Source of the DNA: a virus
Lineage: Duplodnaviria; Heunggongvirae; Uroviricota; Caudoviricetes
Length of the DNA: 5,679 nucleotides
IMG/VR virus record: IMGVR_UViG_2547132278_000010
Reading direction: 5' to 3' (one strand)
The notes beneath the pieces were generated by a model. That model worked only from the letters and a program-made list of their open reading frames with translations. It ran no database searches and was not told the origin of the DNA. Each line of letters opens with the position of its first letter. Position 1 is the stretch's first letter. This document shows positions 285-3,510 of the stretch, one piece after another. Both the position numbers and the translations under genes were made by a program.

Positions 285-3200
285 ATCCGTCATTGACAAG
301 AACAAATATCGTGCAGGTAAACGTAACTCCGGTCGAATTGTGGAGTTTACCAAAAACAGCATCACTCTCGATGCGCCTGTGTCGTTAGCTAAAAGCGGCA
401 GCTTTATTCGGATATTGAATCAGGAAGGCAAAATCGTTGAGCGCGATGTTCTTGAAACTGGCGAAAACATAACAAAGGTTACGTTTTCAAAAGCTCTGTC
501 GTCAGCGGAAACGCCTGTTTTGAACGGTGTCTGGACAATTACAGAACCAGATCTCGAACCTATGCGCGTTCGCATCGTTAACATCGCTCAGGGGGAAACG
601 TCGGGTAGCTTTGACATCACCGCTGTTGAAAACAATCCGTCTAAATATGAGGCGATCGACAATGGTGCAACGCTTATCCCGCAGAATACGACGGTATTGG
701 ACCCGACTTACTCCAAGCCGTCTAATTTGCAAATCACTGAAGGGACTTACCTCTCAAGCCCGGGCAACCTGTCAGTAAAACTGACTGCAACATGGGAAGG
801 GAAATCTCCAGAGTATTGGATCAGTTGGCGACGTTCTGATGAAAACAATGTATCGAACTGGCAATCGGCGCGTGTAACCGAAGAGCAATACGAAATCGTT
901 AATGTCGCGGAGAATGGACGCTACGACTTCCAACTGTATGCGGTTTCATTCAACGGTAAAAAAACAGAAATTATCAGTACCGTTTATCAGGTGCTGGGCA
1001 CAATGACACCGCCGGATGCACCAACGTCATTAACGGCCGTTGGAGACTATCGTAATGTGATACTGAATTGGGTTAATCCAGATTCGGTAGACCTTGATCA
1101 CATTAATGTTTACGCATCCCAGACCAACAATCTGGATACGGCGAAACTGATCGCAGAGTCTGCAAGCACCACCTTTACACATGCTGGTCTTGGGGATAGC
1201 GAAACGTGGTATTACTGGGTTCGAGCATCGAACAAGCGAGGTATGTTAAGCCCTCCGAACTCAAACTTGGGTACAGAGGCGACAACTCGCGATGTACTGT
1301 CGTTCCTGGCTGGCAAAATTACATCTTCCGAGCTTGGTCAGGCTCTGCTTGAGGACATCAACAGCAAAGCCTCTCAAGAAGCAGTTGACGAGTTAAATGA
1401 GCATATCAACCAGAGCGTCGAATCTTTGGAGGGGGCGGTAAACGACGTTAAGGAAGATATAGCTGAATTAGATAAGCAGTTCAGCGATAACCTCGCGGGT
1501 TTTGAAATAAAATTCAACGAGCGTAGCGATGCTTTGGAGAACGCACAAACCGAGCTTAAAGGTGAGGTTTCGGCAACGATCGACAAGGTCAATGAAGCGT
1601 TTGAAAAAATTGATGCTACTGATGCTGCAATTGTTGAAATCGAAAACACCGTATCTGAACACGATAAAGCTCTCGCTAATACAGTCGAGGCAATAAAGGC
1701 TGCAAGAGACGAAGCGGCGGCTCTTATTGCTAAGGAAAGCGAGGCTCGTGTTGAAGGTGATGCCGCAAACGCTAAACAACTGGAAGTGTTGCAGTCGACG
1801 GTAGAGGAAAGTTCCGCAGCCGTTGAAGAAATGAAAAAGACGGTTGCAGAGGTCGATCGTGCCAGTGCAGAACTGACTACGAACATTGAGGCGTTAGCTA
1901 AAACAAATATTGACCTGGCTCTTCGTCAAGATGAAGACCAGCACAAGCAGATGGTCAATAACGCGAAGATCGCAACAACACAGAAAACCTTTGCTGATGA
2001 TATGTCTGCAATGGCCACGAAGGTTGAGGAAATTCGCGTAGAAATTGGCGAAGACATTAAGGCCAGTATTCTGGAAGAGTCCACCGCTCGTGCCGATGGC
2101 GATGAAGCGTTGGCAAAGCGTGTCACTCAGCTGCAATCTAAGTTTGAAGGAGAGATCAGCGCGGCGATTAGTACAGAGCAGGAGGCTCGTACATCTGCCG
2201 ATGAAGCTCTGACGACACAGATCACTCAGCTTGAGTCGAAAGTAAGCAACGATATCGTCGCAGCTATTAAGGAAGAGCAAGAAGCCCGAGCAACGGAAGA
2301 TTCGGCTCTGGCAAGCCAGATCACCCAACTTCAGGCAAAGGTTGATGATGATATTTCTGCTGCAATACGTAGTGAGCAGGAGGCCCGAGCAAGCGGGGAC
2401 TCTGCGTTAGCCAAACAAATAAACCAGCTTCAGTCAAAGGTTGACGGTGATATATCCGCTGCCATCACTCAGGAGCAGGAGGCCAGAGCAAGTGCTGACC
2501 AGGCGCTCTCACGAGAAATTAACAGCCTGCGAGCACAAACCGGAACTGATATTGCCGCAGCGGTTGCTGTAGAGACAAAAGCAAGGACTGATGCCGATAG
2601 TGCATTGTCTACCCAGATTACGTCTCTTACAGCAAAAGCTAATGATCTCAAGGCGTCTCTTGCCAGAGAAACAACGGCTCGTGCAGATGGTGATACCGCT
2701 TTAACAAAAGAGGTTTCAAGTTTAAAAGCACAGACAGCGAAAGATATTAGTGCGGCCGTTGCAGTTGAAACGCAGGCTCGAACTGATGCTGACTCGGCGT
2801 TGTCGTCTCAGATCACCAAGCTGACCTCTCAATACAAAGAGGATATTAAAGCGGCTGTAGCAACCGAAACGAAAACGCGTACAGAGCAAGATGCTGCATT
2901 GGCGACTCAAATCACAAACTTAGAGTCTCAAACGGCAGCCAACATTTCCGCGGCGGTCACAACTGAAACGAAAGCGAGAACGCAGGCAGATAATGCTCTG
3001 AGTGGGCGAATCGATACTCTGAAAGCAGAGGTGAATGGAAATACCGCGACAATTCAACAGCAGGCAACAGCTATTGCTGATACCAACAAAAAAGTGTCAA
3101 CCGCGTGGACGTTGAAAATGGAGACTTCAACGAGCGGAGGGCAGAAGTATGTTGCCGGTATTGCGCTTGGTATTGACACCACTGGGCTATCTCAGTTTTT

Positions 3201-3510
3201 GGTTCAGGCGGACAGGTTTGGTTTGGTCAACTCTGTTAACGGGAAGATCACAACGCCATTTGTTATCGAAAACAGTATCGCCTATATGAATGGAGCGTAT
3301 ATCAAGGATGGCACAATCACCAATGCAAAAGTAGGCGATCTGCAATCTACCAATTTTGTTAGCGGTAGATCTGGATGGCGGTTCGGCAAAAATGGAACGC
3401 TTGAGATCAACGGTAATAGCGGCGGCAATGGGCGATTGGTTATAAATGGTCAGCGGATTGACGTTTATGACGATAACAACGTCTTACGAGTAAGAATTGG
3501 CCGTCTGTGA
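271..3510 (+). CDS. J: Phage tip attachment / host-specificity protein J homologue (central tail fibre), 5'-truncated remnant corresponding to roughly the C-terminal half of lambda gpJ; N-terminal half removed by the IS21-family insertion (probable pseudogene or gene fragment, although a 1079-codon ORF with a GTG start remains)
   Basis: Frame 1 is open from the GTG at 271 (directly after the TAA at 268-270) to the TGA at 3508-3510. The translation aligns with lambda gpJ as I remember it: [14 protein letters not shown] vs [35 protein letters not shown] vs [28 protein letters not shown]...[17 protein letters not shown] vs YYFYIRSVN...FFKGKITESHLGKELLE, and [10 protein letters not shown]...[10 protein letters not shown] vs KHYVAGIGLS...LSQFLVAANR. 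The alignment begins near lambda J residue ~540-550, so about 540 N-terminal residues are absent. Upstream in this frame there are stops at 220-222, 226-228 and 268-270. Confidence 0.88.
2077..3063 (+). repeat. Ten tandem in-frame repeats of 99 bp (one of 96 bp) inside the J homologue, encoding a 33-residue alpha-helical unit (consensus roughly E-x-x-A-R-x-x-A-D-x-A-L-x-x-Q-I-T-x-L-x-x-K-V-x-x-D-I-x-A-A-I/V)
   Basis: Repeat starts read directly at nt 2077, 2176, 2275, 2374, 2473, 2572, 2668, 2767, 2866 and 2965 (99-bp period, with one 96-bp unit). Units are recognisably similar at protein level (e.g. [99 protein letters not shown]) but diverged at nucleotide level. A more degenerate helical region extends upstream to ~nt 1330. 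Confidence 0.8.

What the first reader, a model, noticed from the sequence alone, without database searches (positions are those of the whole stretch)
3060..3510. J homologue ends right after the conserved distal block, with no lambda-type receptor-binding domain
After the conserved block ([42 protein letters not shown]...) the protein terminates within ~110 residues (…[36 protein letters not shown]). Lambda J continues for ~250 more residues that form the LamB-binding domain. Receptor recognition in this phage is therefore probably delegated to another protein. The immediately downstream fibre gene, with its non-lambda N-terminal domain, is the obvious candidate partner. This would be a modular arrangement closer to siphoviruses with a separate receptor-binding protein than to lambda itself.
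Basis: partly seen in the sequence, partly recalled or inferred. Interest (0 to 1): 0.45.

Follow-up and report, generated by a model that had tools for sequence, protein, structure and literature searches.

The report
Tail-tip protein lacking built-in receptor binder
The phage tail-tip gene really does end without lambda's receptor-binding domain, but this is a common, complete ending known from phage T1 and its relatives. The missing function is more likely supplied by a small gene cassette lying beyond the window than by the neighbouring fibre, and the gene here is in any case broken by an insertion sequence.

Summary
The ORF stops at TGA 3508-3510, 18 residues after a Phage_Tail_Tip (PF09327) domain. 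It has no lambda Ig_GpJ_C receptor-binding domain (PF12421).

Two corrections are needed:
- The "1079-aa" ORF is not a whole J. Nt 1-298 are the right end of an IS100kyp element, and J resumes at nt 299, at about codon 506 of 1575.
- The ending is neither a truncation nor an error. The infectious phage SSU5 ends the same way, as do T1 gp33, DEV gp56 and two P. aeruginosa phage J proteins. So do 126 of the 150 best hits among 1.84 billion representative proteins.

The window comes from an SSU5-like phage-plasmid.

Delegation of receptor binding is plausible, but the fibre is probably not the replacement for the missing domain. Its N-terminal beta-barrel is homologous to the F2-pyocin side fibre PyoF13, which docks on the central fibre's helical shaft. 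The same anchor also occurs next to J alleles that carry a C-terminal extension.

A better candidate is a cassette of an 84-93 aa protein, a ~200 aa protein and, in SSU5 and p38, a Cor lipoprotein. It is homologous to genes flanking J in a T1-like phage. Most plasmids with this J ending carry it; none of the 26 with the extended ending does.

This is a new member of a known kind, of moderate interest.

The parts
1..298 (+). Right end of an IS21-family element (IS100kyp). It holds the 3' part of istB (stop at 230-232) and the terminal sequence ...CCGTCATTGACA ending at nt 298.
   Evidence: Pfam IstB_IS21 E 5.7e-32. Megablast to annotated IS100kyp istB copies at 97-99%. The alignment with an intact IS copy and with Cyrano J fixes the junction at 298/299.
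299..3510 (+). 3' two-thirds of the central tail fibre / tail tip gene J (about codons 506-1575 of the intact gene), ending at TGA 3508-3510. The apparent GTG start at 271 is IS sequence.
   Evidence: 98.7% identity to phage Cyrano J and fibre, and 99.9% to ~110-kb E. coli and Shigella phage-plasmids, from nt 299 on. PHROG 'central tail fiber J'. Matches to lambda J 487-837 and to T1 gp33.
1015..1254 (+). Fibronectin type III domain of J (ORF residues 249-328).
   Evidence: Pfam fn3 E 2e-5, 25.1 bits against a cutoff of 25. It aligns to the lambda J FNIII/Ig region.
1288..3048 (+). Proline-free shaft of about 590 residues (ORF residues ~340-926). It includes ten consecutive 33-residue repeats (ORF residues ~590-925, nt ~2038-3045). 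Lambda has only about 26 residues between its second Ig domain and the tip domain.
   Evidence: Autocorrelation peaks at lags 33, 66 and 99; ten motif copies; no Pro at residues 340-930. The Pro-free run is 666 residues in Cyrano J against 125 in lambda J. The region aligns to the repeat regions of T1 gp33 and of F2-pyocin PyoF10. That the homologous region is alpha-helical rests on the PyoF10 cryo-EM description.
3049..3453 (+). Phage_Tail_Tip domain, the beta-prism 'central straight fibre' (ORF residues 927-1061).
   Evidence: Pfam PF09327 E 6.8e-42. Aligns to lambda J 841-971. The only significant Foldseek hit of the AF2 model is the SU10 tail needle gp18.
3415..3507 (+). Conserved terminal 'class A' cap (ORF residues ~1049-1079, ...[33 protein letters not shown]). 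It stands where other alleles carry a 153-195 residue extension.
   Evidence: T1 gp33 aligns to its own last residues, and DEV gp56 and SU10 gp18 match this stretch. 126 of 150 representatives end within 10 residues of this point; 17 diverge at query position ~128-130. The alignment shows both classes.
3511..3603 (+). Intergenic region of 93 nt between J and the fibre gene. It has a GC hairpin at 3562-3582 and an AAGGAG ribosome-binding site at 3588-3593. It contains no gene.
   Evidence: Sequence read. No promoter-like or terminator-like site was found.
3604..5679 (+). First 692 codons of the lateral tail fibre gene; it runs off the window. The full length is 1432 residues in the nearest relative p38, ending in a Peptidase_S74 self-chaperone.
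   Evidence: Translation. PHROG tail fibre families. P1/Mu S-type motif at residues 451-502. Length and C-terminal domains in p38.
3604..3927 (+). Fibre N-terminal anchor: a six-stranded beta-barrel (residues 3-75) followed by helices (residues 82-108).
   Evidence: phmmer to F2-pyocin side fibre PyoF13 (25ve_A) E 0.0037. A profile built without Pseudomonas sequences gives E 3.3e-9 to 25ve_A, 1e-7 to a Dit decoration domain and ~1e-6 to depolymerase N-termini. AF2 model has pLDDT 81-93 over the barrel.

Best explanation
[quoted passage not shown] In this window the gene has lost its first ~505 codons to an IS100kyp insertion.

Shown:
- J ends with the beta-prism 'central straight fibre' domain plus a conserved ~30-residue cap.
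- This is a complete, widespread ending shared with T1 gp33, DEV gp56, P. aeruginosa phage J proteins and the SU10 needle.
- It contains no lambda-type Ig receptor-binding domain.

Inferred, step 1: the cap is a docking platform for a separately encoded tip complex. That complex would be an 84-93 aa accessory protein plus a ~200 aa protein of PHROG family 425, accompanied in SSU5 and p38 by a Cor-type lipoprotein that would block superinfection. The cassette is homologous to the genes flanking J in the T1-like phage tonijn. In the closest complete relatives it lies directly after the fibre gene, about 2.3 kb beyond the window end. Its outer-membrane receptor is unknown.

Inferred, step 2: the downstream fibre is a lateral fibre. 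Its N-terminal beta-barrel and stem helices would attach to J's exceptionally long repeat shaft, as the homologous F2-pyocin side fibre PyoF13 does. Its distal end would bind LPS, as reported in the literature for SSU5 fibre gp22.
For: No receptor-binding domain:
- PF09327 sits at residues 927-1061 of 1079 and PF12421 is absent, whereas lambda J has PF12421 at 1001-1132.

The ending is complete:
- SSU5 J ends ...[11 protein letters not shown].
- T1 gp33, DEV gp56 and SU10 gp18 align to the last residues.
- 126 of 150 representatives end within 10 residues of this point.
- YMC11, BR141a and Vid5 J end the same way.

Precedent for a separate tip binder on this kind of ending:
- DEV gp56 recruits gp55 and the LptD binder gp54.
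- Drexlerviridae encode receptor-binding loci downstream of gpJ, and the GpJ C-terminal tip co-varies with the receptor-binding protein.
- F2-pyocin PyoF10 lacks a receptor-binding domain.

The cassette:
- SSU5_023/024 are PHROG 557/425 and are followed by Cor. Vid5 ORF23, directly after J, is also PHROG 425.
- CYRAN_88/89 are 52% and 41% identical to tonijn gp17/gp16, which flank J.
- The 99.9%-identical relative p38 has the 84-aa ORF, the 202-aa ORF and a Cor homologue right after the fibre.

Association with the J ending:
- The 26 plasmids with the extended J ending and the 119 with the Cyrano-type cassette do not overlap (145 records in the union).
- About 105 and about 72 of roughly 170 class-A plasmids carry the Cyrano-type and the p38-type cassette respectively.
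- pTB212, with an intact extended J, has neither cassette anywhere.

The fibre:
- Homology of the anchor to PyoF13.
- PyoF13 docks on the helical shaft of the central fibre.
- A long repeat shaft is present here.
- SSU5 is reported to bind LPS core through tail fibre gp22.
Against: - No direct evidence shows that the cassette proteins are in the virion or touch J. PHROG files family 425 under 'moron / host takeover', and no Pfam family or solved structure matches.
- Unlike in T1-like phages, the cassette is not directly downstream of J. In Cyrano it lies 60 kb away among accessory genes.
- The plasmid counts are derived by arithmetic from megablast totals on related plasmids. They are not independent events, and some class-A plasmids may lack both cassette types.
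- SSU5 infection has been explained by LPS core alone, as cited. I could not read the primary paper.
- Foldseek gave no significant match for the fibre anchor model. The PyoF13 entry seems to post-date that library.
- Docking on the shaft is inferred from one homologous system.
- The window's own genome is not available, so the presence of the cassette there is assumed from relatives.
Confidence: 0.55

Rival explanations
1. The downstream fibre attaches through its N-terminal domain to the J C-terminus, which lacks a receptor-binding domain, and is the sole receptor-binding protein in place of the missing lambda-type domain.
For: - The fibre gene starts 94 nt after the J stop, with no gene between.
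- SSU5 is reported to bind LPS core through this fibre.
- The fibre N-terminus is non-lambda and is shared by phages whose J has the same ending.
Against: - A ~90% identical anchor follows J alleles that carry a ~165-residue C-terminal extension. The anchor cannot depend on the bare cap.
- The solved homologue PyoF13 binds the helical shaft, not the tip.
- A Drexlerviridae-type cassette tracks the class-A ending.
- In P. aeruginosa phages and Vid5, the same kind of fibre coexists with extra small genes between J and the fibre.
Confidence: 0.15
2. The J tip acts alone. The beta-prism and cap contact or pierce the outer membrane directly, like a tail needle, and need no protein receptor binder. 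The lateral fibre supplies all specificity, and the small cassette is only a lysogenic-conversion or superinfection-exclusion module.
For: - The only significant fold match of the J C-terminal model is the SU10 tail needle gp18, a coiled coil plus beta-prism with no known bound receptor binder.
- PHROG labels family 425 a moron, and Cor is an exclusion lipoprotein.
- In Cyrano the cassette sits among accessory genes.
- SSU5 needs LPS core.
Against: - The cassette proteins show no signal peptide or membrane segment by eye.
- Homologues flank J in T1-like phages, where such loci predict the receptor.
- The cassette is mutually exclusive with the extended J ending, which is hard to explain for an unrelated moron.
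- DEV gp56, with the same C-terminal element, needs gp55 and gp54.
Confidence: 0.2
3. The short ending is an artefact: a sequencing or assembly error, or a recent nonsense mutation that removed a receptor-binding domain.
For: The gene is demonstrably damaged at its 5' end by an insertion sequence, so the element is decaying.
Against: - 155 complete E. coli genomes hold a place covering at least 80% of the window, the best at 99.4-99.9% identity. In the relatives read in full (Cyrano, SSU5, p38) J ends at the same stop.
- The infectious phage SSU5 ends identically.
- 126 of 150 distant representatives end within 10 residues of this point.
- Read-through gives only 21 codons of unrelated sequence.
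Confidence: 0.01

Closest known systems
Bacteriophage lambda gpJ (tip attachment protein J; PDB 8IYK, 8XCJ, 8XCK)
   Same: Same order of modules: hub domains (in the intact relative), FNIII domains, helical shaft and Phage_Tail_Tip beta-prism. Direct sequence similarity covers lambda 487-837 and 841-971.
   Different: There is no Ig_GpJ_C receptor-binding domain (lambda 1001-1132). The shaft is about 590 residues instead of a few tens. A conserved 30-residue cap ends the protein.
T1 gp33 and the J-like proteins of Drexlerviridae and related small siphoviruses, with their receptor-binding loci next to gpJ
   Same: - Best solved-structure sequence match (9l9p_S, E 6.6e-44). It has repeat-rich shafts and an ending that aligns to the last residue (...RLRVQIGRL).
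- Homologues of the adjacent small genes (tonijn gp17 and gp16) occur in this phage-plasmid family.
- A lipoprotein gene is adjacent in both.
   Different: - Here the gene directly after J is the large lateral fibre. The cassette lies after the fibre (SSU5, p38) or 60 kb away (Cyrano).
- The element is a ~110-kb temperate phage-plasmid, not a ~50-kb virulent phage.
- The receptor of this cassette family is unknown.
F2-type pyocin of P. aeruginosa (central fibre PyoF10, side fibre PyoF13; PDB 25VF, 25VE, 25VJ)
   Same: - The central fibre has a long helical shaft and a C-terminal beta-prism without a receptor-binding domain.
- The side fibre N-terminal beta-barrel is homologous to the fibre encoded here.
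- The predicted tip binders are separate small proteins.
   Different: - The shaft here is longer and built of 33-residue repeats.
- The fibre is about 1400 residues, of lambda Stf / P1 S / T4 gp34-37 type, not a 363-residue pyocin-knob fibre.
- No PyoF11/12-like genes lie between J and the fibre.
- This is a phage, not a tailocin.
P. aeruginosa phage DEV receptor-binding fibre (gp56-gp55-gp54; PDB 9ZE4)
   Same: Its C-terminal beta-helix is modelled to carry one adaptor (gp55) and one receptor-binding protein (gp54).
   Different: DEV is a podovirus. The three genes form one overlapping operon. The gp54/gp55 sequences were not compared with the cassette here.
T5 pb4 and pb5
   Same: The principle is the same: a central fibre without a receptor domain and a non-covalently bound receptor-binding protein encoded elsewhere in the genome, plus a cognate exclusion lipoprotein.
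   Different: No sequence relationship was found here. The pb5-type proteins are much larger.

Membership tests
Lambda-type J with covalent receptor-binding domain | C-terminal Ig-like receptor-binding domain (Pfam Ig_GpJ_C, PF12421) | tested here: not met
   Absent from the window ORF and from the intact Cyrano J. Present in lambda J at 1001-1132, E 4.5e-74.
Lambda-type J with covalent receptor-binding domain | Central straight fibre beta-prism (Phage_Tail_Tip, PF09327) | tested here: met
   E 6.8e-42 at ORF residues 927-1061.
TipJ-family tail tip / hub protein | N-terminal hub region (FNIII-A_GpJ, Phage-tail_3) | tested here: not met
   Missing from the window because the IS insertion removes codons 1 to ~505. 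Present in the intact Cyrano homologue at 102-236 and 358-521.
T1/Drexlerviridae-type J-like protein with separate receptor-binding protein | J ends with the beta-prism plus the conserved terminal cap, with no extension | tested here: met
   Aligned to the end of T1 gp33. 126 of 150 representatives end within 10 residues of this point.
T1/Drexlerviridae-type J-like protein with separate receptor-binding protein | Variable receptor-binding locus directly downstream of J | tested here: not met
   A 93-nt gap, then the lateral fibre gene. Homologous cassette genes exist, but after the fibre (SSU5, p38) or 60 kb away (Cyrano).
T1/Drexlerviridae-type J-like protein with separate receptor-binding protein | Cassette proteins homologous to genes flanking J in a Drexlerviridae phage | tested here: met
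   CYRAN_89 against tonijn gp16: 41% identity, E 2e-57. CYRAN_88 against gp17: 52% identity, E 7e-32. The p38 202-aa ORF against gp16: 32% identity. These were tested in relatives, not in the window.
T1/Drexlerviridae-type J-like protein with separate receptor-binding protein | Physical attachment of the receptor-binding protein to the J tip, and receptor binding | not testable with these tools
   Needs multimer modelling, cryo-EM or genetics.
F-type-pyocin-like fibre architecture | Side fibre N-terminal OB-like domain homologous to PyoF13 | tested here: met
   A profile without Pseudomonas sequences hits 25ve_A at E 3.3e-9 over residues 1-82. AF2 gives a six-stranded barrel. Foldseek was uninformative.
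F-type-pyocin-like fibre architecture | Extended alpha-helical shaft in the central fibre | tested here: inconclusive
   About 590 proline-free residues with 33-residue repeats, aligned to the PyoF10 shaft. However, the AF2 monomer model drew the last repeats as beta-hairpins.
F-type-pyocin-like fibre architecture | Side fibre docks on the shaft kink | not testable with these tools
   There is only an alignment of the PyoF10 kink DDGN 953-956 with ADGD 805-808, which could be chance.
IS21-family insertion sequence IS100kyp | IstB helper ATPase and the element's terminal sequence | tested here: met
   IstB_IS21 E 5.7e-32. The window is identical to an annotated copy up to ...TTGACA at nt 298.

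The most novel reading that the evidence does not exclude
SSU5-like phage-plasmids may use a hybrid host-recognition device not yet described for them. It would have three parts:
- A very long J shaft (about 590 residues) of 33-residue repeats, with a glycine at the kink-like position in every third repeat. The shaft would carry lateral fibres through PyoF13-type anchors, possibly at several tiers.
- A J tip that switches between two interchangeable solutions: a bare cap that docks a Drexlerviridae-type two-protein receptor binder, or a covalent ~165-residue extension.
- A mobile binder cassette, found at two different genome positions, that would set the host range of a plasmid family spreading CTX-M-type resistance.
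Probability: 0.2. Interest if true: 0.6.

Novelty: new member of a known kind. Interest (0 to 1): 0.35.

Why it matters
SSU5-like phage-plasmids are common ~110-kb elements of E. coli, Shigella, Salmonella and Yersinia, and some carry ESBL genes. The nearest relative of this window carries blaCTX-M-15. Their host-range determinants are described in the literature as poorly understood.

Two results make their host range predictable and testable:
- Their tail tip follows the T1 / DEV / F-pyocin logic, with a J protein lacking a receptor domain and separate small tip proteins.
- Two alternative J endings segregate with the presence or absence of a small cassette.

For this particular window the practical message is more modest. 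The J gene is broken by IS100kyp, so the element is probably a defective phage that persists as a plasmid.

Tried and rejected
- Foldseek of the fibre N-terminal model against the PDB gave no significant match, only generic beta-barrels. The F2-pyocin entries seem to post-date that library, so the homology rests on sequence profiles.
- The AF2 monomer model of the J C-terminus gave only the SU10 needle as a significant match. It drew the shaft repeats as beta-hairpins. I do not trust a monomer model of a trimeric fibre.
- Tandem Repeats Finder found no DNA-level repeat in the shaft. The 33-residue periodicity is visible only at protein level.
- The primary SSU5 receptor paper (PMC3911222) is not held, so I relied on citing papers.
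- The ~165-residue extension of the alternative J allele has no Pfam or PDB sequence match, so it cannot be called lambda-like.
- CYRAN_89 has no PDB sequence match.
- I considered Cor as evidence for FhuA as the receptor. I dropped this as a claim because Warwickviruses with homologous cassette proteins are reported not to depend on FhuA.
- No terminator or promoter was found between J and the fibre gene.
- No database record spans the IS/J junction, so the source genome and the fate of the J 5' part are unknown.
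Full report
**What is in the window**

The + strand ORF 271-3510 (1079 codons) ends ...GRL-TGA at 3508-3510. The first 298 nt of the window are not phage DNA. They encode the C-terminus of an IstB helper ATPase (Pfam IstB_IS21, E 5.7e-32) and match IS100kyp copies at 97-99% identity.

Aligning the window with an annotated IS copy and with the intact phage gene fixes the IS end at nt 298 (...CCGTCATTGACA). Tail-gene sequence resumes at nt 299. From nt 299 on, the window is 98.7% identical to Escherichia phage Cyrano and 99.9% identical to ~110-kb E. 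coli and Shigella plasmids. These are SSU5-like phage-plasmids.

In Cyrano the gene order is tape measure, M, L, K, I, J (1575 aa), tail fibre, holin. Window nt 299 corresponds to about codon 506 of J. The GTG 'start' at 271 lies inside the IS. The window therefore holds only the 3' two-thirds of J, and the gene is disrupted.

**Check of the observation**

Pfam finds Phage_Tail_Tip (PF09327, E 6.8e-42) at ORF residues 927-1061, so 18 residues remain after the domain. Lambda J has the same domain at 845-972, followed by Ig_GpJ_C (PF12421), the receptor-binding domain, at 1001-1132. The intact Cyrano J has Phage_Tail_Tip at 1423-1557 of 1575 and no Ig_GpJ_C.

phmmer aligns the last 160 residues of the window ORF to lambda 841-971 and leaves 161 lambda residues unmatched. 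Reading through the TGA gives 21 unrelated codons and another stop. The size of the lambda excess is about 130-160 residues rather than 250, and the residue numbering belongs to an IS-J fusion ORF.

**The ending is a normal, widespread one**

- SSU5, an infectious phage, has a J that ends ...[11 protein letters not shown].
- The best solved-structure sequence match is T1 gp33 (9l9p_S, E 6.6e-44). It aligns up to its own ...RLRVQIGRL end.
- The F2-pyocin central fibre PyoF10 matches the tip domain up to 11 residues from its own end. DEV gp56 and the SU10 needle gp18 match the C-terminal element itself.
- Against 1.84 billion representative proteins, the last 160 residues give 1284 hits.
- Of the best 150 hits, 126 end within 10 residues of the query's end ('class A'). 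Another 17 diverge at query position ~128-130 and continue for 153-195 residues ('class B'). The ranking favours class A, so the ratio is not a population estimate.
- Nine further hits scanned, seven of them class B, had Phage_Tail_Tip but no Ig_GpJ_C.
- The AF2 model of the C-terminus (pLDDT 81) has one significant Foldseek match, the SU10 needle. It matches no receptor-binding fold.

**What is known about such endings**

- In lambda the order is FNIII domains, helical shaft, beta-prism and receptor-binding domain.
- In the F2 pyocin, PyoF10 has a long helical shaft and a beta-prism without a receptor-binding domain. The authors expect the domain to be supplied by separate small proteins.
- In DEV, the J-like gp56 recruits gp55 and the LptD-binding gp54 at its C-terminal beta-helix.
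- In T1-like phages the receptor binders are thought to be non-covalently attached to J and encoded next to it. Phages that lack the locus have a C-terminal extension of J instead.
- A 2026 preprint confirms four receptor-binder families at that locus. It also finds that the GpJ C-terminal tip co-varies with them.

Delegation of receptor binding is thus a known arrangement.

**The downstream fibre**

The gene starting at 3604 encodes a lateral fibre, of which the window holds 692 codons. It has a lambda-Stf-like Ala/Ser-rich rod and a P1/Mu S-type motif. In the nearest relative it is 1432 aa long and ends in Gp34_trimer and Peptidase_S74 domains.

Its N-terminus hits the F2-pyocin side fibre PyoF13 (25ve_A) at E 0.0037 with the single sequence. 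A five-sequence profile containing no Pseudomonas sequence gives E 3.3e-9. That profile also hits a distal-tail-protein decoration domain and phage depolymerase N-termini. AF2 gives a six-stranded beta-barrel (residues 3-75, pLDDT 81-93) followed by helices.

In the pyocin this domain and its stem helices bind a glycine kink of the central fibre's helical shaft, not its tip. The J here has a proline-free stretch of about 590 residues with ten 33-residue repeats, against a few tens of residues in lambda.

The same anchor occurs in SSU5, in P. aeruginosa phages with pyocin-like gene order, and in Pantoea Vid5. All of these have class-A J endings.

**Why the fibre is probably not the replacement for the missing domain**

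A sister lineage of the same phage-plasmid family has a class-B J with a ~165-residue extension of unknown fold. Examples are L007 and the complete plasmid pTB212, whose J is an intact 1524 aa. In both, the J gene is followed by a fibre whose anchor is ~90% identical to the one here. The anchor therefore does not depend on a bare J tip.

**A better candidate for the delegated function**

- In SSU5 the fibre and its adhesin are followed by an 84-aa protein (PHROG 557), a 188-aa protein (PHROG 425) and a Cor lipoprotein.
- Vid5 ORF23, directly after J, is also PHROG 425.
- tblastn with SSU5_024 finds T1-like and Nonagvirus phages, and also Cyrano.
- In the Drexlerviridae phage tonijn the homologues gp17 and gp16 flank J, next to a lipoprotein gene.
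- Cyrano's CYRAN_88 and CYRAN_89 are 52% and 41% identical to tonijn gp17 and gp16. They lie 60 kb from J.
- In Shigella plasmid p38, 99.9% identical to the window, an 84-aa ORF, a 202-aa ORF and a Cor homologue lie directly after the fibre gene. They are 68%, 74% and 59% identical to the SSU5 proteins. In window coordinates this cassette would start about 2.3 kb past the window's end.
- These proteins show no signal peptide or membrane segment on inspection.

**Association test on PLSDB plasmids**

Composite megablast queries gave the following counts.

| Query content | Records | Places |
|---|---|---|
| Class-B extension alone | 26 | 26 |
| Cyrano-type cassette alone | 119 | 120 |
| Class-B extension + Cyrano-type cassette fragment | 145 | 146 |
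| Class-A marker + Cyrano-type cassette fragment | 184 | 291 |
| Class-B extension + class-A marker + p38-type cassette fragment | 197 | 270 |

- The union of 145 equals 26 + 119, so no plasmid carries both the class-B extension and the Cyrano-type cassette.
- The second composite implies about 170 class-A plasmids, about 105 of which carry the Cyrano-type cassette.
- The third composite implies about 73 plasmids with the p38-type cassette, about 72 of which are class A. All 23 listed class-B plasmids show a single match.
- pTB212 has no homologue of either cassette anywhere (tblastn E up to 1).

This mirrors the Drexlerviridae rule of either a locus-encoded binder or a J extension. The caveats are that the counts are derived by arithmetic, that megablast misses divergent alleles, and that the plasmids are related.

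**Conclusion and limits**

The most likely mechanism has three parts:
- The lateral fibres anchor on the J shaft and bind LPS. This is reported for SSU5 gp22 as cited.
- A small two-protein complex docks on the J cap and binds an unknown outer-membrane receptor.
- A Cor-type lipoprotein excludes superinfection in those relatives that carry it.

The steps involving the cassette and the docking sites are inference. None of the physical contacts could be tested with the tools available, and the receptor is unknown. Cor hints at FhuA, but Warwickviruses with homologous proteins are reported not to be FhuA-dependent.

The arrangement belongs to a known kind and is newly recognised here in SSU5-like phage-plasmids.

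Noticed in passing
window 1-298 (junction at 298/299): An IS100kyp (IS21-family) right end abuts J at about codon 506. The J ORF's apparent GTG start and first 9 codons are IS sequence. No database record spans this junction, so the insertion seems private to the source.
   Followed up: yes
window ~2038-3045 (J ORF residues ~590-925): There are ten consecutive 33-residue repeats (DISAA...E..AR...D.AL...I..L...). Glycine occupies the 'R-x-x-G-D' position only at ORF residues 496, 610, 709 and 807, roughly every third repeat. ADGD 805-808 aligns with the fibre-docking kink DDGN 953-956 of F2-pyocin PyoF10.
   Followed up: partly
window 2938-3180 (model residues 3-80): The AF2 monomer model draws the last shaft repeats as long beta-hairpins at pLDDT ~90. 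The homologous PyoF10 region is helical in cryo-EM, and lambda's shaft partly converts from helix to sheet on receptor binding. This may be an artefact or a hint of metastability.
   Followed up: no
window 3562-3582: A 7-bp GC hairpin (GGCGGGC-AAGGATA-GCCCGCC) sits just upstream of the fibre ribosome-binding site, with no T-run. A different GC hairpin sits at the same position in the class-B relative L007.
   Followed up: no
L007:8001-8810; L013:43614-48188 (pTB212): The same phage-plasmid family has a second J allele with a ~165-residue C-terminal extension of unknown fold. It occurs in 26 PLSDB plasmids and never together with the small cassette. In L007 this J is itself cut by a mer/bla resistance transposon.
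   Followed up: yes
L016:33745-34830 (p38); L010:3675-4573 (Cyrano); L008:11653-12760 (SSU5): The cassette of an 84-93 aa protein and a ~200 aa protein (plus Cor in SSU5 and p38) occupies two different genome positions in the family. At least two plasmids (CP099126.1, CP056788.1) carry both cassette types. The Cor homologue in p38 is unannotated in the PLSDB gene table.
   Followed up: partly
window 3998-5002, both strands: Several long ORFs in other frames and on the minus strand (326, 327 and 231 aa) overlap the Ala/Ser-rich part of the fibre gene. They look like by-products of the biased, repetitive composition rather than genes.
   Followed up: no
L015:19847-22240 (p38, record 81846-84239): The closest complete relative of the window carries ISEcp1-blaCTX-M-15. 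It is therefore a phage-plasmid with an ESBL gene.
   Followed up: no
L008:7291-11609; L007:8948-13222; L016:34891-39189: The distal end of the fibre is swapped between relatives. SSU5 has a separate 178-aa adhesin. L007 has Peptidase_S74 plus a Gp38-like adhesin gene. p38 has a 1432-aa fibre ending in Peptidase_S74. Cyrano has a 1341-aa fibre. The N-terminal anchor stays conserved throughout.
   Followed up: partly
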